A DNA stretch of 36,008 nt from a virus: the UHGV virus genome UHGV-0138922. One strand, given 5' to 3'. How positions within the stretch are numbered: position 1 is the stretch's first letter; each line of letters starts with the position of its first letter. Below the pieces are notes generated by a model. It was not told the origin of the DNA and made no database searches. It worked only from the letters and a program-made list of their open reading frames with translations. The translations under genes and the position numbers were made by a program. Shown here in pieces: positions 27-35,129 of this stretch.

Positions 27-49
27 TAATATATTTCCATTACTAGTAA

Positions 50-1657: not shown

Positions 1658-1677
1658 ACGCGGTAGGGGCTTTTTTG
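1641..1677 (+). terminator. Rho-independent terminator
   Basis: GCCCCTA...TAGGGGC stem followed by TTTTTTGTTT. Confidence 0.6.
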
Positions 1678-1689
1678 TTTGGAAATGGT

Positions 1690-3369
1690 ATGAAAACTAA
1701 ACTGTATTCGTATATTCGCTTCTCGTCTATGCGTCAGAATGATGGTTCGAGTTATGAACGACAAATCAGGATGGCTAGAGAGATTGCGGCAAAGTATGAC
1801 CTTGAACTGGTAAATGATTATCAGGATCTGGGTGTATCTGCGTTTAAGGGTGCTAACTCTAAAACAGGGGCGCTATCTCGTTTCCTTGATGCAATTGGTA
1901 GATCCGTTCCTGTTGGTAGCTGGCTATTCATCGAAAACTTGGACCGTTTATCCCGTGCCGATATTGTCAGTGCGCAGGAGTTATTCCTTTCAATCATCCG
2001 TAGGGGAATAACCATTGTTACTGGCATGGATAACAAGATCTACTCGCTGGATACTGTTACCGCTAATCCGATGGACCTGATGTTCTCCATCCTTTTATTC
2101 ATCCGTGGTAATGAGGAAAGCCAGACTAAGCGCAATCGTACTAACTCAAGCGCACTGATTAAGATTAAAGCCCATCAAGAAAATCCCCAGAATCCGGCAG
2201 TGGCAATCGAGGAAGTTGGAAAGAATATGTGGTGGACGGATACCACTTCCGGTTATGTGCTGCCTCATCCGGTGTACTTCCCTGTTGTTCAGGAGATTGT
2301 GGAATTACGGAAGAATGGACGTTCAACCGCCGAAATACTGGATCACCTTAACGAGACTTATACACCGCCACCAGCGGTTAGCAACAAGAAGCATTCAAAA
2401 TGGTCACGGGCAATGGTTGAAAGGTTGTTTCATACCCGCGCTTTGATTGGTATCAAGGAGGTCTCTGTAGATGGCGTTAACTATGAGTTAAAGGATTATT
2501 ACCCTCGTGTTATTGATGACCCTACGTTCTATCACCTTAAGAAAAATATTGGTGCTAGAGCATGGAACTTCGGAGACAAGGAAGAAGTTAAACCGATCCC
2601 CCTGCTTAGTGGTATTGGCCTATTGAAATGTGATCATTGCGGTTGCGCTATGGTTAAAGTGAAGGGAACGAACAAACGTTCTGACCAGTATCGTTATACA
2701 TGTGATGCGACCCGTTCACGTAGACTTGATTGCGAGCATCCAAACTGGAGTTTTCGAGGTGATCAATTAGAGAAAGCTGTATTGCAATTGCTGGCTGATA
2801 AAATCTGGATTGCTGAGGACAAGGCTAATCCGGTTCCGGCGTTGAAAGTACAGGTTGATGAAATATCACGCAAGATTGATAACCTGATTGCCCTTTCTGC
2901 TATGACAGGAGCAACGAAGGAGCTAGCCGATCAGATTACTACCCTCAATAGCGAGCGTGAAACACTCTACAATCAGATCAAGATGGCAGAAGAGGAAATG
3001 TATTCTGTTGACTCTCAAGGCTGGGAGAAGCTCGCAGAATTTGATTTAGAAGATGTTTACAACGAGGAACGACTAAAGGTCCGGTTTAAGATTAAGCAAG
3101 CTCTAAAGCGGATCGGGTGTAGCAGGATTGACAGAAACAAAAACTTGTTTGTACTGGAATACATCGATGGAAAGACCCAGAGAGTTGTAATAGAAAATTC
3201 AAGAGGAACGAGGAAAGGACAAATCTTTGTCGATTTGAAAACTATCAATGATAGGCAGATTCTGGAGAGTAACGGGCTTGTTCTGCATCCATGTTTAGAC
3301 ATGCTGACAGATAAGAACTGGAAACCAGAAGAGGAAATACCAGGTCCATTACAGGAATTTGGAATTTAA
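1690..3369 (+). CDS. Large serine recombinase (phage integrase)
   Basis: N-terminal resolvase-type catalytic motif YSYIRFSSMRQ; long recombinase domain; Cys-rich zinc-ribbon (CDHCGC...YRYTCD...C) and C-terminal coiled coil; ATG 1690 is the likely start (track start 1675 is TTG). Confidence 0.88.
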   Translation: MKTKLYSYIRFSSMRQNDGSSYERQIRMAREIAAKYDLELVNDYQDLGVSAFKGANSKTGALSRFLDAIGRSVPVGSWLFIENLDRLSRADIVSAQELFLSIIRRGITIVTGMDNKIYSLDTVTANPMDLMFSILLFIRGNEESQTKRNRTNSSALIKIKAHQENPQNPAVAIEEVGKNMWWTDTTSGYVLPHPVYFPVVQEIVELRKNGRSTAEILDHLNETYTPPPAVSNKKHSKWSRAMVERLFHTRALIGIKEVSVDGVNYELKDYYPRVIDDPTFYHLKKNIGARAWNFGDKEEVKPIPLLSGIGLLKCDHCGCAMVKVKGTNKRSDQYRYTCDATRSRRLDCEHPNWSFRGDQLEKAVLQLLADKIWIAEDKANPVPALKVQVDEISRKIDNLIALSAMTGATKELADQITTLNSERETLYNQIKMAEEEMYSVDSQGWEKLAEFDLEDVYNEERLKVRFKIKQALKRIGCSRIDRNKNLFVLEYIDGKTQRVVIENSRGTRKGQIFVDLKTINDRQILESNGLVLHPCLDMLTDKNWKPEEEIPGPLQEFGI

Positions 3370-21919: not shown

Positions 21920-22753
21920 TCAGTATTCCCCGAAGTCGATTCTATCAGTCTTAGCAACCGCATTAATTTCGGCTGGCGTTGGCTTCTCATTTGTTGTATA
22001 GACTTTAATCCATTCCGATTTTCCGTTGTCCTGAATATTTCGTACCCGCAAACGTGGAGCACCGGAAGTATTACACGTTAATTGCCATGCGCCATGCTCA
22101 TTAGCTTGAAGATGAATTAACGATGTATCAGCACCATAAGGGTTAGTGCTAGCCGTTCCTTTGTAGGTTACGAAGCGGTTTCCTGTCAGAGATTCACTAT
22201 CAATAGGTCCGGTGAAAGGATTTACACCAGCGCCCAGACCAAAATCACCCTGACGCAAGATCCGGCCTTCGGTTGCAATACCCCTTGCAAGAATCCCGCC
22301 ATCTGGTTCTAGTTTGAATTCCATAGTTACAGCTTTGTTATCACCGCCACGAGTTTTATGGCTAGTGACATAAGCATCATAAATGACATAGTAACCAGTG
22401 TTAGCAGCACTATAGCCAGAGTTCACAACATAGAACATTCTAAAGCGCAAAGGTGTTTTATCCTCTACGGCTTTCATCAACATTGCTTGATGTTCGTCGT
22501 CAAGAACACGGTTTACTGTGAGCGTAGTCGGTTCAAGTTTGCGATAGCCAGCCAGCTTACCAGTCGCATCATGATCATACTCTTCGTAAGTCTCGATCTC
22601 GGTTGATTCTGTCAGCGTAGGAAAGGCTGCGATGTTCTCCATACCACTAAAGCTAGGATCGAAAAAGTCGACCTGATTGTCTAGCTGGTTAGAGATCGAC
22701 ACTTCAACATGCGACCCCGTAAAAATATCTAAGTTATCATGTGTAATATTCAT
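21920..22753 (-). CDS. Tail tube-like protein with extra C-terminal domain (277 aa), paralog of the major tail protein
   Basis: Shares DIFTG, LTLTVN and VDG/EPDG blocks with 18018-18494; C-terminal ~120 aa additional. Confidence 0.55.
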   Translation of the reverse strand: MNITHDNLDIFTGSHVEVSISNQLDNQVDFFDPSFSGMENIAAFPTLTESTEIETYEEYDHDATGKLAGYRKLEPTTLTVNRVLDDEHQAMLMKAVEDKTPLRFRMFYVVNSGYSAANTGYYVIYDAYVTSHKTRGGDNKAVTMEFKLEPDGGILARGIATEGRILRQGDFGLGAGVNPFTGPIDSESLTGNRFVTYKGTASTNPYGADTSLIHLQANEHGAWQLTCNTSGAPRLRVRNIQDNGKSEWIKVYTTNEKPTPAEINAVAKTDRIDFGEY

Positions 22754-22762
22754 TATTACCCC

Positions 22763-23185
22763 TTAAAAACGCGCTAGATAAGAAAATTTAAGACTAAGTG
22801 TCCCAACGATACCCCCATCACTAGAATCATCGTCATAATCGGTATTAGAAGCGACTGGAGTTATATCTGAAATGGAGAAGCCCAAATCTTTAAAACGTGG
22901 GTTATCTGGCTGAATCTGGATTATCTGGCAAATACCCTCATGAATTTTCGTTTCATGAATCTGAGAATATAATTGCATTTCGATAACGCATTCAGCTTGC
23001 ATTGCATTACCACCACGGACCCTAGTGTAAGTCTCATTCATTCCGGTAATCCAACACACCACGTCATCGCTAAAACCAGTTTGAGTTTGTTCTACGTTTA
23101 AAGCCAGACCTAGATCTTGTTCGATAATATCCTGTAAAGCACGTTTAATCTTAAGACGTGGCATATTATTAACGGTAGCGAGCAT
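22763..23185 (-). CDS. Head-tail joining / neck protein (putative)
   Basis: Position between capsid and tail genes; AGGGGGTG ribosome-binding site supports the internal ATG near 23185. Confidence 0.4.
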   Translation of the reverse strand: MLATVNNMPRLKIKRALQDIIEQDLGLALNVEQTQTGFSDDVVCWITGMNETYTRVRGGNAMQAECVIEMQLYSQIHETKIHEGICQIIQIQPDNPRFKDLGFSISDITPVASNTDYDDDSSDGGIVGTLSLKFSYLARF

Positions 23186-27747: not shown

Positions 27748-29655
27748 TTAGAACGATGTTACCCAGCTACGGCCTCTATTTGGGCGTCTGGCGATGTTTT
27801 GACGTTGTGGTCGTGTGATTGGCTTAGTTTCTTCGATTTGCTCGTCAGATTGCGTTTTAGGAGCTTCTACGGATTCTTCGACAACACGGTTTAAGCTGTC
27901 TTTCATTGCAATGAGTTTATCCCATGACATTTTTGAAAGAACGTAGCGAGAAGCAGCATAGCTATAAACCAGACAGTCGAGAGCCTCGTTTCGGGTACTA
28001 CCTGGATTTTTCACCCAACGAACACCAGTAGTAGTACGCTTGATGGATTCACTCAAAAGCTGATCGAGATAATCATCAGGAACGGTTTCTGATATTTCTA
28101 GGCCGATATGAGGATTGTCTTTCAGGTTTCTAACCAGCATTTCACGAACAGCGGATTTACCAACGTTAACACCCAACATAAGCAATTCATGACCACCTGT
28201 GCGGGTAGGTTTAACCGGAATCACTGGAGCATTACCAGATGAACTACCTTTGATAGCGTGTAGGTTCTTCCACTTACCGCAAATACGGTATCCGGCTTGA
28301 GTGAATCGACCGTTTGATGTATCGAGGAAGCTGGCGAGCATTGGTACACGTTCACCATTAACGTTATAGAATTTGGTTTTCTTGAAGTTAACCAGGCGAT
28401 CCCATACAGGTGATTCATATCGTTCACAGTTATGATCGTAAAAGCTGCGGTGATCCAGAATGTAAACCTTATCTTTCGCTACACCTAAGATGGTAGATTC
28501 TGCGCGATCCAATTGCTGGTCAATTCCTGAGCACAAGAAAATTACGTCATCAGGGATATTCTCGATAGAAACATCTGTTTTGAGTTGTTCCAGTTCATTG
28601 GCTTCTACGGCAGTGTCCTGATCATCGTATACCTTACCTAACACGGTGTTATAAAATGATTGTAAATCAAAGGATTGCCACGCATGACTAAAATCAACCA
28701 CACAAGCGCGAATCGTGCTAAAAGGTGAATACAGACGACTGATCCAGAATCCTGCTACTTCACTTTCACGGGTTGCTCTCCACTCGCCTTGCGCTACTGC
28801 CCTGATTCGTTCCCCTTCGGTCCATGCGTTCTTACAGTGGGGGCAAATATAACGAGCGGTATCAGGATCAGGTAAGTTCTTACCATCAATGTTACGCCAT
28901 TCAAATTGAACGTTTTCCCACTCGATCACCTGGTGTTCCCCGCAATGCGGACACGGAACAAAAAACATACGCATGTCGCTTGATAACCATTGCTGGTTAA
29001 TGCTTCCGAGCTTACTGGTCGGGGTACTGGATACGACTAATCGACCTTCATCCCCAAAGGTAGTTAAACGGTTAGCAGCCAGTGCCACCGGATCACCTTC
29101 TTCTGAGGCTGTGGCAGCATCGATTTCGTCAAGTAATCCAACCTTTGCGGTCTTACCACGTAGGGTTGATGGACTGGTAAGCGATACCATGTACAGGAAG
29201 TGATTCGTTTTTAGCTGTAGCTGGTTATTGTTGTTAACCGCATTGCGATCATTCTTGTCTGTAACCACGTCTTTTAATGCATCACATGCTTCGATAGACG
29301 GTCGGATCTTACCAGCGAGATATTGAGACATTTCTTTAGCGGTTGATTGTCCGATAATCATATTGCATGGATCGTTAGCCATCTGGTTAAACAGGATACC
29401 GTTTAGGATGGTAGTTTTTCCGATCTGCGCACTGGTCATCAGAACATACTTTTTCTTGTTCTCAAGGAAAGGAGCATCAATCATGCCTTTCTGGAATGAC
29501 AGCAATTTAACTTTATCCCCAGCTTGAGGACCATCTACCAGCACCATATTCGCTTCGCACCATTCCGATGGAAGGAGTTTAGGCGGTGGCGTAATATATT
29601 TTGCGGCATTTCTAAGAATTCTTTTTAGTTTTGTTTTGTTCGAAATTAGTTTCAT
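27748..29655 (-). CDS. Terminase large subunit (lambda gpA family)
   Basis: Walker A-like TSAQIGKTT, conserved CPHCG zinc-ribbon motif, 635 aa; GAGGGT ribosome-binding site. Confidence 0.88.
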
Positions 29656-29742: not shown

Positions 29743-30345
29743 ATGCTAATTAACCAACAACAAAGGGATGAATTAGATTTAGCCTTATCTTGTACCGATC
29801 ATGAATATCGTTTGCCAGTCAAGCATAAGCATTTAAAAACCGACTACACAACATCCGGTTTTAGCCGTGAGGAAGCGAAAGAGATTTTAATAGAGTTTTA
29901 CCGCGATAATGGTTATACAGACGTTCACAACTTCTTTAAGAAGCATAGAACATCACATACAGAGTTTCGGAGAGTCCGAGATTGGTTTGATTTTGATATC
30001 AAGCGGTTTTACAGGATTGATGACGGTCCGGTCTATCGGTTGCAATGGAAGCCGATCCGAGAAGTGTTGAAACAGAAGAGATTGAATCACGCTGTTACAC
30101 GCTATCGTAACGAGGCATTCAAGAAAGGCTATGGTGATACAAGGGAATTGTTTGTAGAACTCGCTAACGTGCGTTATAGCCACTATTACAACGATCCTAA
30201 AGGATTCTTCGAAGTGCTTCGCAAGGTTGATATTAGTCGGGGTACATACTATTCACGGTTGAAGAAGTACGGGATTAAGGCAGAGTTCTTCATGACCGTT
30301 GACGACTCACCGATGTTCAAGATAAAATGTAAGTCCTCTAAATAA
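29743..30345 (+). CDS. DNA-binding protein with C-terminal HTH-like domain (200 aa); possible small terminase or regulator
   Basis: AAGGGGGG ribosome-binding site; C-terminal ISRGTYYSRLKKYGI motif shared with two small paralogs. Confidence 0.55.
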   Translation: MLINQQQRDELDLALSCTDHEYRLPVKHKHLKTDYTTSGFSREEAKEILIEFYRDNGYTDVHNFFKKHRTSHTEFRRVRDWFDFDIKRFYRIDDGPVYRLQWKPIREVLKQKRLNHAVTRYRNEAFKKGYGDTRELFVELANVRYSHYYNDPKGFFEVLRKVDISRGTYYSRLKKYGIKAEFFMTVDDSPMFKIKCKSSK

Positions 30346-30380: not shown

Positions 30381-30605
30381 ATGACTACTAAAGCTACTCG
30401 CGGACGTCCTTGCCGTTTTGATCGTGAACAACTGGCAGCGATTGTAAAAGCGTACTATCAAGCACCGAAAGGTAAAGCTGAAAAAGAGCAAGTATTGAGT
30501 GAACACGGTATTTCAATCGCTCAATTCTACAAATCACTCCATAAAGTTGATTTGAAATTCTTTGTTCAGGTTGACGGTGAAATGGTAGAAGCAACAGGAA
30601 TTTGA
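30381..30605 (+). CDS. Small HTH-like protein (74 aa), paralog family member
   Basis: MTTKATRGRPCRFDREQLAAIVKAYY...EHGISIAQFYKSLHKV; GGAGG ribosome-binding site upstream of ATG 30381. Confidence 0.55.
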   Translation: MTTKATRGRPCRFDREQLAAIVKAYYQAPKGKAEKEQVLSEHGISIAQFYKSLHKVDLKFFVQVDGEMVEATGI

Positions 30606-30687: not shown

Positions 30688-31515
30688 TTACAGTCCGAAG
30701 TGTTCCAGTGATCCAGCATTCTGACGAATCAGCAAAGCAGTATTATTGACGATTGCTCGTGAGTTGTTAGGTTGTGGCAATTTCAAAGTTGCTGCCTTTT
30801 CTTCTTCAAGCAATCCGAGTTTTACGAGATGCGGGATAGCATCAGCAGTGAACTCGATCTGACCGTGTGCTGACATACGAGCGAACATATAGCCAGGAGG
30901 AAGCAGATCATAGCCGTTAGGCTTACCAGAAGCATCCAGACGACGCTCAAGAACACCAGCAGCACATAATCCTTTCAGAATCATTTGTACCTTCACAGAG
31001 CCTCGTTTTTCGCCCAGAAGACGGGTTAAGCTGTGTGTGTCGATTGCTTTACGTACATGCAATTCAACCAGTTGATTCTTTTCCTGAATCAGTTGTTCGT
31101 TTGCAGCTTCCAGTTCCATTGCCTCGCGAATCCAATCGAGCTTAGTCATGTTTGCGTATGGGTTGACTTGCTGAGAACGCAGTTTTTCATTTTCTTCTTT
31201 CAGTCGTTTCCATTCCTGAATAACAACCATTCGACGCTTAACATCGTAACCAGTGACAAGAGTCAGTGTCAGTTCTTCATCTAAATGATATTCGGTTTGT
31301 TCTCGTCCACACTGATCAAGATAGGTGCGCTCAAAACTGAGCACATCTAATTCCAGAGCATCGAGCATGGATTTAATATCACGTTTAACGTTTTTGTGTT
31401 CTTTTCCGGTAAATTCAGCGATCTGACGAGAAGACATGGTCAGCGGTTTGGTGTTATCAACAACCAGAGACACGGAAGCAGTTTTAGTAGTATTCATAAC
31501 GGTAACAGTATTCAT
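30688..31515 (-). CDS. Rha-family regulatory protein / antirepressor-like
   Basis: N-terminal LTMSSRQIAEFTGKEHKNVKRDIKSM resembles the Phage_pRha motif; coiled-coil middle; AAGGGGAA ribosome-binding site. Confidence 0.7.
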   Translation of the reverse strand: MNTVTVMNTTKTASVSLVVDNTKPLTMSSRQIAEFTGKEHKNVKRDIKSMLDALELDVLSFERTYLDQCGREQTEYHLDEELTLTLVTGYDVKRRMVVIQEWKRLKEENEKLRSQQVNPYANMTKLDWIREAMELEAANEQLIQEKNQLVELHVRKAIDTHSLTRLLGEKRGSVKVQMILKGLCAAGVLERRLDASGKPNGYDLLPPGYMFARMSAHGQIEFTADAIPHLVKLGLLEEEKAATLKLPQPNNSRAIVNNTALLIRQNAGSLEHFGL

Positions 31516-32056: not shown

Positions 32057-32530
32057 TTAGAGCATTTCTAAGCCATCGTGATAGCCGTAGAAGCCATTCT
32101 GAGAAGAGAAACAGATAGGAGCATAATCATCATCTTCGTCGTCTTCATCTTCGTCATAATCGTTTTTAGGGGCTTCCTGAGCGGTTTCTTTACCGTAGTT
32201 AAACATGGCTTCGTCAATCTCTTGAAGGGTTACGAAACTACCCAAATCCACATCACCGAAACGGACTTCGAACGGCAGATCATCACGAACAATAATTGCT
32301 GGTAGATTCTGGTACTTCGCACGATCTTGATCGGTGAAGCAGTTAACTACGATAGTAGGTTTCTTGTTCTTACAAAACGAATACCAAGCACTAGAAAAGC
32401 TGGATTCATCGGAATCAAAAAGGATGTTATAACCACGTTCAACGAAGATCTTCATTAAACGGTCATTGTGAAAGCTATCTGCATCCAGACCTAACAGGAT
32501 GAAAGGAGTAGTAGTCTTGTTCTTGTACAT
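32057..32530 (-). CDS. Hypothetical protein with strongly acidic C-terminal tail (157 aa)
   Basis: AGAGGA ribosome-binding site before ATG 32530 (track start 32566 lacks one); DYDEDEDDEDDDY tail. Confidence 0.55.
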   Translation of the reverse strand: MYKNKTTTPFILLGLDADSFHNDRLMKIFVERGYNILFDSDESSFSSAWYSFCKNKKPTIVVNCFTDQDRAKYQNLPAIIVRDDLPFEVRFGDVDLGSFVTLQEIDEAMFNYGKETAQEAPKNDYDEDEDDEDDDYAPICFSSQNGFYGYHDGLEML

Positions 32531-32570
32531 AGTTGGTAATCCTCTAAAAGAAAGTGAATCAAACAAATTA

Positions 32571-32846
32571 CACTAGTATTTATAACGAGAATTTTTTATC
32601 TATTTGGAAGTGATTGGTATTCAGTCTGGCTAAAGCCATCCTTCATGTACTAGAACAAGAATTATACAAAACAAATTTTCTTCTATAATAATATTATATA
32701 ATAGTTCTTCGTTTTGATTAAATGATCATCAAACCAGTATTGACGCTCTCCAGAGCGTCTGCGAAGCAATCTATTACCTTCTAGTATTATCAAAGTGATT
32801 CCAACTACCTTTCTAGTAACCAGTTAGTAATCATCTAGTATTAAAT
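32571..32846. promoter_or_regulatory. Cluster of five CTAG-containing sites ([A/T]CTAGTA[A/T]), candidate operators
   Basis: ACTAGTAT 32571, TACTAGAA ~32650, TCTAGTATTA 32781, TCTAGTAAC 32812, TCTAGTATTA 32835; the first overlaps a candidate -10 for gene 32530. Confidence 0.4.
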
Positions 32847-32869
32847 CCCTTTCTAAGAAAATCCTTTCA

Positions 32870-33000
32870 AAAGTGAGTGAACGCCGTAGGCGTGAACGTG
32901 AGCGAAGCGAACTATCCAATCCCTTTCGAATCCTGCTTGCAGGTCTTAGAAGGTGTTGGTGGGCGCTACGCGCACGGCTACGCCGTATTCTTTTTGTGAG
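32870..33000. other. GC-rich hairpin-dense non-coding element (possible small RNA or recombination/packaging site)
   Basis: ACGCCGTAGGCGT, GCGCTACGCGC and ACGGCTACGCCGT hairpins; direct repeats GTGAGCGAAGCGAAC / GTGAGAGAAAGCGAAC; local GC far above surroundings. Confidence 0.35.
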
Positions 33001-33118
33001 ATCTTTCTTGAACGCTAGTGAGAGAAAGCGAACAAAAAGGAGAACGTTAGTTCGAGTTTTATATTCTATGGTCTGTGTGGTCAAATGCTTTTGCAAATCA
33101 TACACTTACGTGATTGAA

Positions 33119-33240
33119 GTGTAGGGTTAGTGTAGGTGTGTAGGTTTCATAGTGTAGGTTTGGACATGTTCTAGTGTAGGTTTACTGGCTAGTGTAGTGT
33201 AGGCCAATCCCTTTCATGTGTAGGTTTGTAGTGTAGGTTT
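33119..33240 (+). repeat. Iteron array: 8 direct copies of GTGTAGG(TTT)
   Basis: Copies start at 33119, 33130, 33138, 33152, 33174, 33197, 33218, 33231. Confidence 0.8.
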
Positions 33241-33330
33241 TTCATCAAAAATTTTGATAAAAAATTCTTGTATATTATTTAACCAAAAAATCATCAAAAA
33301 TCGCTGTAAGTTAATGATTTAAAAGGAATT
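33241..33330. promoter_or_regulatory. AT-rich tract with ATCAAAAATTTTGAT palindrome and repeated ATCAAAAAT half-sites
   Basis: Perfect 15-bp palindrome at 33244-33258; half-site copies near 33292 and 33395. Confidence 0.55.
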
Positions 33331-33354
33331 GTCAAAAGGTCACCGTGCTATAAT
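33326..33354 (+). promoter_or_regulatory. Promoter with extended -10 (TGcTATAAT)
   Basis: TG at 33346-47, TATAAT at 33349-54; weak -35 GAATTG/TTGTCA. Confidence 0.55.
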
Positions 33355-33434
33355 AGGTTATAAAGGTTGATAATCCTGATCAGCCGTTTTCACACAAAAA
33401 TTTTGATAGTCATTTCTCGCCTAGATCATGGGTA

Positions 33435-33463
33435 TTGACAATAGTCAAGAACTATTTTATACT
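33435..33463 (+). promoter_or_regulatory. Sigma70 promoter (TTGACA-N17-TATACT)
   Basis: Hexamers read directly; about 340 nt leader to gene 33806. Confidence 0.6.
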
Positions 33464-33805
33464 TTTTCTCACTGGTGGGGGTTGAAATTTTCAAAACAAT
33501 CCCCATATAGATGATAGGCAAGAATTTCTCTTGTATAAATACATGCATGAAAATGATTGTTCACTTCTGAAATCTCCAGATTCACTGTTAATTCATACAG
33601 CACTGGTTAGATATACAGTGCTTTTTCGGTTGAATAATGTACGAATTGATTAATTATTAATCTTCTCTTTAGCAATTCGTGCTCCCACTGATCGGATATA
33701 CAGTAGTTTTACAGGGTTTTTCGAAAATCATTTTATAAATAGATATGTCGAGAGCGAAAAGCTCTTTTTAAAGTTTTCATTATTCCACAATTGAGGATTC
33801 TACTT

Positions 33806-33985
33806 ATGGCTAGACCTGTTAAATTTACCCGTGAAATGATTGTTGATATTGCTAAACGCTTTTATGGTGACACTGAACGAGGCGGTGAGAACTTCTTTAA
33901 GAAGGAAGGAATTGATAGAAGCGGATTCTACAAACTAATGAAGAAATACGAGATTCAAGTAAAGATTAACGTTCAAGTTTGTTAA
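33806..33985 (+). CDS. Small HTH-like protein (59 aa), paralog family member
   Basis: MARPVKFTREMIVDIAKRFYGD...EGIDRSGFYKLMKKYEI; GAGGA ribosome-binding site before ATG 33806. Confidence 0.55.
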   Translation: MARPVKFTREMIVDIAKRFYGDTERGGENFFKKEGIDRSGFYKLMKKYEIQVKINVQVC

Positions 33986-34103: not shown

Positions 34104-35129
34104 ATGAAAAATTCTAAGCGCATCACCTTCAACCTGTTCATCAAATCCAATGGCAAACTGAACATTACTGTTATGGAAGGTAAAGCAAGCAAACAAGACA
34201 AATCCTTTGAAGTAGTATCCGGTAAGACTCTGACCGAAATGCGTCAGAATGCTGGCATCAAAGACGGTGCTGAATGGCAGATCACTAACCGTTTCGACAA
34301 ACGTCACGTTAAACCTACACTGGTAGAAGGTGAATCCGTTTATTGCTTCGCTCGTGCTGTTAAAGCTGATGAGACTTACTATCTCGCTGTTGTTAAAACT
34401 GCTTCCGGCTTCCGTGCTGTAATGCATCACAAGAGCAAGCGTAACGAATACGGTGTAGAGACCCAGGAAGTTGCAAAACGCTTCCGTACTGTTGCTACTG
34501 AATCCACTGTAAAGGATGTTTCTGGTACTGTTAACACCGCTAAAGGTGGTTCCTTCTACAACCATGCATTACAGGTTACTTCCTCCTTCTTCTGCAAAAA
34601 AGAAGCACAGAAAGAAGTTGCTCCGGTGGTAGTTGAAGAAGTTAAAGAAGAAGTTGCAGTGGTTGAATCTTCCGAAGTTGAAGCACTGAAAGCTGAACTG
34701 ACAGCAGTTAAAGCGGAAAATGCTTCCCTGAAAGAAGAAAACGCATCTCTGAAAGCAGAACTGGCAGCACAGGAAACCACTTTCGAAGCAGCGGTTGAAG
34801 TTGAAGCAGTTGAAGAAAAATCCATTGATGAAGAACTGGAAGAACTCCTTAACTATCGCTGGGGTAACGGTGAAGTAGAAGAACAGGAAAACGAGAAAGA
34901 AGCTGATCCGGTAGTAGTTCCGGTTGAAGTTGAAGCAGAATCCGCACCAGTTACTAACTTTGAAACCCTGCGCAATAACTTTATGGCTAAATTCAAAACT
35001 ACTTGGGAAGATACCGAAGAAGAACAAGAAGATATTGAAGTAAACGAAGACGAGATCCGAGAAGCACAGATGGCACTGCATGACGCTATCTATGACACTA
35101 ACTACAGCGCCTACGCATACGCAGCTTAA
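34104..35129 (+). CDS. Acidic coiled-coil protein (341 aa) with host-optimised codon usage; function unknown
   Basis: CAGGAG ribosome-binding site; codons dominated by CGT/CTG/GGT/TTC/AAC/GAA unlike neighbouring phage genes; C-terminal half Glu/Ala/Val-rich heptads. Confidence 0.65.
   Translation: MKNSKRITFNLFIKSNGKLNITVMEGKASKQDKSFEVVSGKTLTEMRQNAGIKDGAEWQITNRFDKRHVKPTLVEGESVYCFARAVKADETYYLAVVKTASGFRAVMHHKSKRNEYGVETQEVAKRFRTVATESTVKDVSGTVNTAKGGSFYNHALQVTSSFFCKKEAQKEVAPVVVEEVKEEVAVVESSEVEALKAELTAVKAENASLKEENASLKAELAAQETTFEAAVEVEAVEEKSIDEELEELLNYRWGNGEVEEQENEKEADPVVVPVEVEAESAPVTNFETLRNNFMAKFKTTWEDTEEEQEDIEVNEDEIREAQMALHDAIYDTNYSAYAYAA

What the first reader, a model, noticed from the sequence alone, without database searches (positions are those of the whole stretch)
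32571..32846. Cluster of CTAG-containing sites upstream of the acidic-tail gene
Five occurrences of [A/T]CTAGTA[A/T] lie within 280 bp, two as TCTAGTATTA. CTAG tetramers are generally depleted in enterobacterial and many phage genomes, so clustering suggests function, e.g. operators for a repressor. The first site overlaps the candidate -10 of the 32530 promoter.
Basis: partly seen in the sequence, partly recalled or inferred. Interest (0 to 1): 0.4.

Follow-up and report, generated by a model that had tools for sequence, protein, structure and literature searches.

The report
Conserved CTAG-box protein-binding array in prophage
Three of the five CTAG sites are the cores of a conserved ~16-bp box repeated in the control region of an uncharacterised E. 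coli prophage, most likely docking sites for a phage regulator of its leftward promoters; the other two sites are lineage-specific.

Summary
The CTAG cluster is real. Five CTAG lie at 32573-32838, and 5 of the window's 8 CTAGTA hexamers fall in 268 bp (random placement P<1e-6; CTAG alone P about 0.06). Only four sites match [A/T]CTAGTA[A/T]; the fifth is TCTAGTAC on the minus strand.

The window is an E. coli prophage integrated in ycdX, present in 58 of 5426 complete genomes. The sites lie in a 1.26-kb gap between divergent operons.

Sites 32781, 32813 and 32835 sit in a ~100-bp island (32774-32876). It stays 80-96% identical where the flanks have been replaced, and it recurs in Salmonella and Proteus relatives. 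There CTAG is the core of a box, AATC(C/A)CTT(T/C)CTAG(A/T)A, found in both orientations and as a perfect 20-bp palindrome in one relative.

A 9-bp version of the box sits at the -35 position of two leftward promoters that share TCGTTATAAA: one before the acidic gene and one before a terminase-small-subunit-like gene.

Site 32573 lies at the predicted transcription start, not the -10, and is variable. Site 32650 lies in a lineage-specific insertion.

Best reading: an array of binding sites for a phage transcription factor. Whether it represses or activates is unresolved, and the binder is unidentified. Ordinary in kind, in an unstudied phage family.

The parts
32774..32876 (.). Conserved island that holds CTAG sites 3-5. 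It is bounded by direct copies of AAAGTGA (32792 and 32870).
   Evidence: BLAST keeps this block at 80-96% identity in relatives whose flanks do not align. Alignments. Present once per prophage in 52 of 5426 complete E. coli genomes and never annotated.
32772..32787 (+). Box U1, TATTACCTTCTAGTAT (a degenerate box with CTAG 32781). In most relatives this position is CTTTCTAGAAAG, and in L011 it is the perfect 20-bp palindrome ATCACTTTCTAGAAAGTGAT.
32792..32802 (+). AAAGTGATTCC, the reverse-orientation half box (reverse complement ATCACTTT). It is invariant in the island alignment.
32804..32819 (+). Box U2, ACTACCTTTCTAGTAA (CTAG 32813). This CTAG is present in all 17 distinct island variants.
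   Evidence: It is the top PWM score in the window, but it was part of the training set.
32820..32830 (+). CCAGTTAGTAA, a conserved spacer element that is also present in the Salmonella and Proteus relatives.
32834..32843 (+). TCTAGTATTA (CTAG 32835). Kept in 15 of 17 island variants (CTGG in two). The same CATCTAGT(A/T)T context is repeated to the right of the island in relatives that carry CAGGGGCAA iterons.
32844..32859 (+). Box U3, AATCCCTTTCTAAGAA. It has CTAAG here, but CTAG (AATCCCTTCCTAGAAA) in the Salmonella relative.
   Evidence: Second-best PWM score in the window and not in the training set..
32860..32876 (+). AATCCTTTCAAAAGTGA, a convergent pair of half boxes with a shortened centre and no CTAG.
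32606..32614 (-). 9-bp box ATCACTTCC at the -35 position of the leftward promoter of the acidic-protein gene.
   Evidence: The composite [ATCMCTTYC]-N21-[TATAAA] occurs once in the whole window. It is conserved in relatives.
32573..32584 (-). TATAAA -10-like hexamer (32584-32579), followed by TACTAG. CTAG site 1 lies at the predicted transcription start.
   Evidence: TATTTATAA is invariant, but the CTAG is present in only a few lineages.
32645..32667 (+). CTAG site 2 (32650). It lies inside an inverted copy of the first 23 nt of the acidic gene, in a ~65-bp insertion found only in the window's own lineage.
   Evidence: Inverted repeat I3. Absent from other relatives.
32916..32927 (+). CCAATCCCTTTC box among GC-rich hairpins.
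33204..33215 (+). CCAATCCCTTTC box inside the iteron array. The same 12-mer (14-mer GCCAATCCCTTTCA) lies upstream of the TerS-like gene just beyond the window end.
32057..32530 (-). Acidic-stretch protein gene (157 aa). It is the first gene of the leftward operon, followed by a 110-aa protein and a Rha-family protein.

Best explanation
The CTAG sites at 32781, 32813 and 32835 are parts of an array of binding sites for one sequence-specific, phage-encoded DNA-binding protein. The array consists of U boxes, consensus AATC(C/A)CTT(T/C)CTAG(A/T)A, plus a related CATCTAGTWT element.

The array sits in the divergent early-control region of an E. coli ycdX prophage. A shortened 9-bp box (ATCMCTTYC) lies at the -35 position of two leftward promoters that share the -10 region TCGTTATAAA. 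One precedes the acidic-protein operon (predicted start about 32572). The other precedes a terminase-small-subunit-like gene just beyond the window end.

The inferred mechanism is this. The factor binds the promoter-proximal box to switch these promoters, either activating promoters that lack a -35 or occluding them. The upstream island of full, higher-quality boxes acts as a cooperative or looping anchor, or as a reservoir.

The most plausible binders are members of a phage-specific family of small helical, HTH-like domains. This family is present as hth59 (33806-33985), hth74 (30381-30605) and twice in p200 (29743-30345). hth59 lies in an operon preceded by three LexA-like boxes, so the switch may be SOS-driven.

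Shown: the sites, their clustering, their conservation, the box consensus, and the shared promoter architecture. Inferred: protein binding, the direction of regulation, and the identity of the binder. Sites 32573 and 32650 are probably not part of the array.
For: Clustering: 5 of the 8 CTAGTA in 36 kb lie within 268 bp (P<1e-6).

Conservation: the island 32774-32876 is the only block inside the gap kept in distant relatives. The middle CTAG is kept in 17 of 17 distinct variants and the right-hand CTAG in 15 of 17.

Longer box: the same box with a CTAG core recurs in Salmonella and Proteus relatives with the same gene order. Their gaps hold 8 of 17 and 9 of 22 PWM hits in about 10% of the locus. 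In L011 the box is a perfect 20-bp palindrome.

Window scan: ATCMCTTYCTAGWA at up to 3 mismatches gives 30 hits against 19 expected. Seven are in the gap, and 4 of the 5 best are in the gap. ATCCCTTTC occurs 3 times in the window, all in the gap, against 0.85 expected. A fourth copy lies upstream of the TerS-like gene.

Promoter architecture: [ATCMCTTYC]-N19-24-[-10] occurs once in the window, at the acidic-gene promoter, and once before the TerS-like gene. Both carry TCGTTATAAA. Across all fetched loci the pattern is found essentially only at these two places.

Host factors: no IHF, CRP, DnaA, FNR or TrpR consensus lies in the island.
Against: There are no binding or transcription data.

The island lies 200-260 bp from the promoter core and holds no convincing, conserved sigma-70 promoter of its own (and manual checks).

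Box spacing and symmetry differ between relatives, and the palindrome of the relatives is split by 7 bp in the window.

No protein allele co-varies with the island variants, so the binder cannot be assigned.

The PWM was built partly from the sites it then finds.
Confidence: 0.5

Rival explanations
1. The island is an accessory part of a replication origin. It would bind a conserved host or phage replication factor next to the initiator's iterons.
For: About 250 bp to the right lie 8 GTGTAGG iterons (33119-33237) followed by an AT-rich stretch. Iteron type co-varies exactly with the N-terminal domain of the 341-aa protein: GTGTAGG with p341-N at 98-100% identity, and CAGGGGCAA, CGGGGA or CTAGGGAT with other proteins. 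The island stays constant next to this swapped cassette. GC-rich triloop hairpins and GCGAAGC mini-hairpins flank it.
Against: No DnaA or IHF consensus is present. The same box sits at the -35 position of two promoters, one of them 3 kb away before the TerS-like gene. An origin role would not predict that. The iteron-binding protein has no recognisable initiator fold or family.
Confidence: 0.15
2. The boxes are recognition sites for the small terminase subunit, like the R sites of lambda cosB, so the region serves DNA packaging.
For: An exact CCAATCCCTTTC box lies about 110 bp upstream of a gene that matches PHROG 57, 'terminase small subunit' (E 8.5e-17). That region is GC-rich and partly symmetric. 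TerL is of the lambda gpA type. From my memory of the lambda sequence, its R sites (CGTTTCCTTTCT) resemble the box; this was not tested.
Against: The TerS-like gene is about 3.3 kb from the island, and TerL is 3 kb away on the other side. The box before the TerS-like gene sits exactly 23 nt upstream of a -10-like TATAAA, matching the acidic-gene promoter, which is a promoter geometry. The TerS-like protein has no Pfam Nu1 hit and no PDB hit to lambda Nu1. Contigs that end in or at the edge of the gap end at different positions (about 32525, 32709, 32852 and 33140), so there is no fixed genome end.
Confidence: 0.1
3. The CTAGTATT sites are duplicated promoter starts. On the minus strand each reads as a -10-like hexamer followed by ACTAG: TATAAATACTAG, GATAATACTAG and TTTAATACTAG. 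The cluster would then be a set of tandem leftward promoters or their remnants.
For: The scan finds TAGAAA-18-GATAAT at 32815-32786 on the minus strand. TTGAAA-19-TTTAAT ends at 32840. Three sites share CTAGTATT.
Against: These hexamers are not kept in relatives. The GATAAT element is absent from the most common island form, and the Salmonella sites have no -10. Spacers of 18-19 nt and weak hexamers do no better than shuffles: 5 promoter-like sites found against 6.1 expected.
Confidence: 0.1
4. There is no specific function. CTAG is simply not avoided in AT-rich non-coding DNA, so a cluster arises by chance.
For: For CTAG alone the scan P is about 0.057. The gap matches its Markov expectation (9 observed, 6.7 expected), and another cluster of four exists at 22653-22824. 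Sites 32573 and 32650 are poorly conserved.
Against: The three island sites are conserved, and the box recurs in three genera. CTAGTA clustering has P<1e-6.
Confidence: 0.05

Closest known systems
Activator boxes that replace the -35 element, such as phage T4 MotA boxes at middle promoters and phage Mu C/Mor sites at late promoters
   Same: Both have a conserved phage-specific box at about -35 to -44, a good -10, and no usable -35 hexamer. Here this occurs at two promoters of the same phage.
Lambda-type repressor operators with distant auxiliary sites (OL/OR looping; the flanking sites of coliphage 186 CI)
   Same: Both have several related sites, one of which overlaps a promoter core, and stronger sites at a distance. 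One relative carries a perfect 20-bp palindrome.
   Different: No CI-like gene lies next to the sites. The sites do not co-vary with any protein among relatives, whereas the neighbouring iterons do. Most boxes are asymmetric and occur in either orientation.
MarA/SoxS/Rob marbox: an asymmetric ~20-bp site read by a monomer with two HTH units
   Different: There is no AraC-family sequence signature. The structural match is not significant.
E. coli TrpR operator (CTAG-centred half sites, GNACTAGT)
   Same: CTAG is the core of the recognised sequence, and ACTAGT or TCTAGT recurs.
   Different: The TrpR-type arrangement GNACTAGTNNNCTAGT is absent. The conserved flanks (AATCMCTTY) are unrelated to it.
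Lambda cosB R sites bound by the small terminase subunit Nu1
   Same: Both involve short CCTTTC-containing boxes. One box here lies upstream of a small-terminase-like gene in a phage with a gpA-type large terminase.
   Different: The main cluster is not next to either terminase gene. The protein is not detectably Nu1. The geometry is that of a promoter.

Membership tests
Phage repressor operator array (lambda-like immunity region) | Sites overlap the core (-35/-10) of the regulated promoter | tested here: inconclusive
   A 9-bp box overlaps the -35 position of the acidic-gene promoter (32606-32614) and of the TerS-like promoter. The CTAG island itself lies 200-260 bp upstream and holds no conserved promoter.
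Phage repressor operator array (lambda-like immunity region) | Dyad-symmetric sites fit for a dimer | tested here: inconclusive
   There is a perfect 20-bp palindrome in L011 and a 16/20 palindrome in L004-type relatives. In the window the halves are split by 7 bp, and most boxes are asymmetric.
Phage repressor operator array (lambda-like immunity region) | A cognate repressor gene lies next to the sites, and sites and protein co-vary among heteroimmune relatives | tested here: not met
   No CI/Cro-like family is found in the flanking genes. The boxes are constant, while acid157, p110, Rha, hth59 and hth74 alleles assort freely.
Iteron array of a replication origin | Many direct repeats of one unit that co-vary with the initiator protein | tested here: not met
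   That description fits the GTGTAGG repeats at 33119-33237 and the p341 N-domain, not the CTAG boxes.
TrpR operator | GNACTAGT half sites in the TrpR spacing | tested here: not met
   The pattern search found none in the window.
cosB (small-terminase R sites) | Sites lie between the nicking site and the small-terminase gene, and the genome ends map beside them | tested here: inconclusive
   One box lies before the TerS-like gene. The island is 3.3 kb away. Contig ends in or at the edge of the gap are scattered. Virion ends cannot be tested with these tools.
-35-replacing activator box (MotA or Mu C type) | A conserved box at about -35 to -45, with a good -10 and a poor -35, at several promoters of one phage | tested here: met
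   Searches find two promoters, both with TCGTTATAAA and box-to--10 spacers of 21 and 23 nt (20-23 across the relatives). The architecture is almost unique among the fetched loci.
-35-replacing activator box (MotA or Mu C type) | A factor that binds the box and is needed for transcription | not testable with these tools
   This needs binding and transcription assays.

The most novel reading that the evidence does not exclude
An undescribed family of small HTH-like domains is present in three genes of this prophage: hth59, hth74, and twice in p200. Its members read the CTAG-cored box and compete at the -35 position of the phage's leftward promoters. In this reading the LexA-controlled copy (hth59) turns the promoters on after DNA damage, and the constitutively expressed copies hold them off. 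That would be a lysis-lysogeny switch built from paralogues, without a CI-type repressor.
Probability: 0.15. Interest if true: 0.6.

Novelty: new member of a known kind. Interest (0 to 1): 0.35.

Why it matters
This prophage family occurs in about 1% of complete E. coli genomes, including O55:H7 and ETEC strains, and has relatives in Salmonella and Proteus. Almost every gene around its control region is annotated 'hypothetical', and no isolated phage in GenBank is close to it.

The work defines three things that give a concrete entry point for working out how this family decides between lysogeny and lysis:
- the box AATCMCTTYCTAGWA;
- the two promoters that carry a shortened box at -35;
- the neighbouring LexA boxes and the swappable iteron/protein pairs.

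It also shows that, in a CTAG-poor genome, local CTAG clusters can point to real binding sites, although the tetramer is only the core of a longer signal. In kind, it is an ordinary cis-regulatory array.

Tried and rejected
Searches that found nothing:
- Near and distant DNA searches of GenBank phages.
- Rfam, where only sub-threshold chance-level hits appeared and none lay in the island.
- Host-factor consensus scans for IHF, CRP, DnaA, FNR and TrpR in the island.
- Two literature searches, on ycdX prophages and on CTAG operators.

Ideas considered and set aside:
- A sigma-70 promoter inside the island. Candidates exist in the window but are not conserved.
- A small RNA running from the island to the terminator-like hairpin at 32974-32996. 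No credible conserved promoter was found, and the 5' part differs between relatives.
- cos in the gap. The TerS-like gene is elsewhere and contig ends are scattered.

Protein work that did not resolve the binder:
- Protein families for the flanking genes: none found.
- p341-N has almost no divergent homologues, so no useful alignment could be built.
- The p200 model gave no significant fold match.
- Correlating island variants with protein alleles to find the binder gave no correlation.

Full report
OBSERVATION

The region holds five CTAG tetramers, at 32573, 32650, 32781, 32813 and 32835.
- The stated 8-mer [A/T]CTAGTA[A/T] matches four of them, all on the + strand.
- The fifth carries CTAGTA only on the minus strand, with flanks T and C.
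- TCTAGTATTA occurs twice, at 32780 and 32834.

CTAG is depleted in the window: 61 observed against 95 +/- 9 in shuffles.

Five CTAG in 276 bp is the window's maximum, but as a scan statistic it is only borderline (P about 0.057). A cluster of four exists at 22653-22824.

The non-coding gap 32531-33790 as a whole is CTAG-rich. It has 7.1 per kb against 1.5 per kb elsewhere, and it matches its Markov expectation.

The hexamer is more telling. Five of the eight CTAGTA in 36 kb lie within 268 bp. Random placement gives P<1e-6, although the motif was chosen after looking.

CONTEXT

The window is a temperate tailed-phage genome. Its recognisable genes are:
- a large serine integrase (1675-3369);
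- helicase, lysis, tail and head genes;
- a lambda-gpA-type large terminase (27748-29655, minus strand);
- a Rha-family protein (30688-31515, minus strand).

No GenBank phage is close to it.

It is an E. coli prophage. Fifty-eight of 5426 complete genomes carry a relative. The best match (98.8%) is in strain FDAARGOS_1267, where the element splits ycdX.

The finding lies in a 1.26-kb gap between two operons.
- The leftward operon holds the acidic 157-aa protein (start 32530), a 110-aa protein and Rha.
- The rightward operon holds hth59 (33806-33985), a 341-aa protein (34104-35129) and an 80-aa coiled-coil protein.

None of these proteins except Rha belongs to a described family.

CONSERVATION

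Thirty-nine related loci were fetched from IMG/VR, then more from assemblies and from E. coli genomes.

BLAST shows that distant relatives keep only three blocks of the gap:
- the promoter-proximal 115 bp;
- an island at 32774-32876 (80-96% identity);
- the region before hth59.

In the island alignment the CTAG at 32813 is present in all 17 distinct variants. The CTAG at 32835 is present in 15 of 17. A third CTAG always lies to the left, at a variable offset.

The other two sites behave differently.
- The CTAG at 32573 is present in only a few lineages, although the adjoining TATTTATAA never varies.
- The CTAG at 32650 lies in a ~65-bp insertion confined to the window's own lineage. That insertion contains an inverted copy of the first 23 nt of the acidic gene.

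The island occurs once per prophage, in 52 E. coli genomes, and is never annotated.

THE REAL MOTIF

Homologues of p200 led to syntenic prophages in Salmonella enterica and Proteus columbae. Both have the same large gap.

Their gaps carry the same element, in both orientations. Examples are:
- AATCACTTCCTAGAA (twice) and ACTACCTTTCTAGAAAGGATT in Proteus;
- AATCCCTTCCTAGAAAATCCTTTCAAG, AATCCCTTCTAGTA and TTCTAGAAAGGATTT in Salmonella.

In E. coli relatives the left-hand site is CTTTCTAGAAAG. In L011 it is the perfect 20-bp palindrome ATCACTTTCTAGAAAGTGAT.

CTAG is therefore the core of a box of about 16 bp, AATC(C/A)CTT(T/C)CTAG(A/T)A.

The window's copies are partly degenerate:
- U1 at 32772;
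- U2 at 32804;
- U3 at 32844, with CTAAG in place of CTAG;
- a convergent half-box pair at 32860-32876;
- CCAATCCCTTTC at 32916 and 33204;
- reverse half boxes at 32551, 32607, 32792 and 32870.

Enrichment in the gap is 6- to 14-fold, depending on the threshold. The caveat is that the matrix was built partly from these sites.

No IHF, CRP, DnaA, FNR or TrpR consensus is present in the island.

LINK TO PROMOTERS

On the minus strand, the 9-bp box ATCACTTCC (32614-32606) lies 21 nt upstream of TATAAA (32584-32579). There is no usable -35 hexamer.

The CTAG at 32573 then falls at the predicted transcription start, not in the -10.

The composite [ATCMCTTYC, up to 1 mismatch]-N19-24-[-10 of at least 5/6] occurs once in the whole window.

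It occurs once more just beyond the window's right end. There it lies upstream of a 185-aa gene that matches PHROG 57, 'terminase small subunit'. That copy has an exact ATCCCTTTC, and the same TCGTTATAAA is shared with the acidic-gene promoter.

Across all fetched loci the pattern is found essentially only at these two places.

Two leftward promoters of the phage therefore share a box at the -35 position. This geometry fits a factor-dependent promoter such as T4 MotA or Mu C/Mor promoters (comparison from established knowledge). It could equally be an occluding repressor site.

CANDIDATE BINDERS

hth59, hth74 and two segments of p200 are paralogues of one small domain (alignment A1).
- The third helix (xxFYKxLKKY) is conserved across hth59, hth74 and the second p200 domain.
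- hth59 and hth74 have a basic N-terminal arm containing RP: ARPVKF in hth59 and RGRPxRF in hth74.

The AlphaFold model of p200 (20 sequences, pLDDT 75) shows two repeats of three helices plus a hairpin.
- Foldseek found nothing.
- This is compatible with DNA binding but proves nothing.

No protein allele co-varies with the island variants, so the binder cannot be assigned.

NEIGHBOURING FEATURES

Eight GTGTAGG iterons (33119-33237) followed by an AT-rich stretch lie about 250 bp to the right.

Iteron type co-varies exactly with the N-terminal domain of the 341-aa protein.
- Relatives that are otherwise 100% identical in acid157 and hth59 carry CAGGGGCAA iterons and a different protein.
- CGGGGA and CTAGGGAT types also exist.

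This cassette looks like an initiator/origin pair, or else a specificity module. The CTAG island is constant beside it.

Three LexA-like boxes (33585, 33603, 33688) lie between strong rightward promoters (TGcTATAAT, with its -10 at 33349-33354, and TTGACA-17-TATACT at 33435-33463) and hth59. The Salmonella relative has a near-consensus LexA box at the same place.

VERDICT

The cluster is real, and three of its five sites belong to a conserved array of protein-binding boxes.

'Operators for a repressor' is one of two live readings. An activator box is at least as likely, because both promoters lack a -35.

Rival readings are less well supported:
- origin accessory site;
- terminase recognition site;
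- tandem promoters;
- chance.

In kind this is an ordinary cis-regulatory array, but it sits in an unstudied and fairly common E. coli prophage family.

Noticed in passing
window 33119-33237 (iterons) and 34104-34613 (p341 N-domain); L016, L032, L043, L048: There are eight GTGTAGG direct repeats followed by an AT-rich stretch. Iteron type co-varies perfectly with the N-terminal domain of the 341-aa protein about 900 bp away. Relatives carry CAGGGGCAA, CGGGGA or CTAGGGAT arrays together with different proteins. This looks like a swappable initiator/origin pair or specificity module.
   Followed up: partly
window 33585-33600, 33603-33618, 33688-33703: Three CTG-N10-CAG LexA-like boxes lie within 120 bp, out of 9 such sites in the window. 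They sit between the rightward promoters and hth59. The Salmonella relative has TACTGTATGAATATACAGTA at the same place. The hth59-p341 operon is probably SOS-controlled.
   Followed up: partly
window 33806-33985, 30381-30605, 29743-30345: A phage-specific family of small helical domains is present in three genes: hth59, hth74, and twice in p200. It has no Pfam, NCBIfam or PDB sequence match. p200 and hth74 form an opposite-strand pair between the Rha gene and the large-terminase gene.
   Followed up: partly
window 32645-32667 against 32508-32530: There is an inverted copy (83% complementary) of the first 23 nt of the acidic-protein gene, with its third codon changed from AAG to TAG. It sits in a ~65-bp AT-rich insertion found only in the window's lineage. 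It could pair with the start codon region if it is transcribed.
   Followed up: partly
window 32742-32759, 32761-32767, 32881-32893, 32902-32908, 32963-32986: GC-rich hairpins with 3-nt loops (GTA, TAC) and two GCGAAGC mini-hairpin motifs flank the island. This is the densest such stretch in the window. Relatives have different sequences but the same kind of hairpins (GAA and GCA loops). The hairpin at 32974-32986 is followed by a T run and looks like a terminator on the + strand.
   Followed up: partly
L046 10491-11048 (minus strand), about 80-640 bp beyond the window's right end: The gene that matches 'terminase small subunit' (PHROG 57) lies at the prophage's right end, next to the ycdX junction. 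It is more than 6 kb from the large-terminase gene. Its conserved upstream block holds the inverted repeat CGGGGT-N22-ACCCCG, which could be cos.
   Followed up: partly
window 33238-33264 and 33395-33407: The palindrome CAAAAATTTTG, within TTTTTCATCAAAAATTTTGATAAAAAA, occurs twice about 150 bp apart, flanking the first rightward promoter. It is kept in relatives that share this promoter region.
   Followed up: no
window 40-49: TTACTAGTAA is a perfect 10-bp palindrome.
   Followed up: no
whole window: At 41% G+C this prophage is far below the E. coli average. Its only GenBank phage relative, at about 35-43% protein identity in TerL, the tail-tip protein and the TerS-like protein, is the 141-kb Escherichia phage DCP80.
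   Followed up: partly
window 32713-32733: TTTGATTAAATGATCATCAAA is an inverted repeat (TTTGAT...ATCAAA). It is conserved in nearly all relatives between the promoter block and the island. It may be a further binding site.
   Followed up: no
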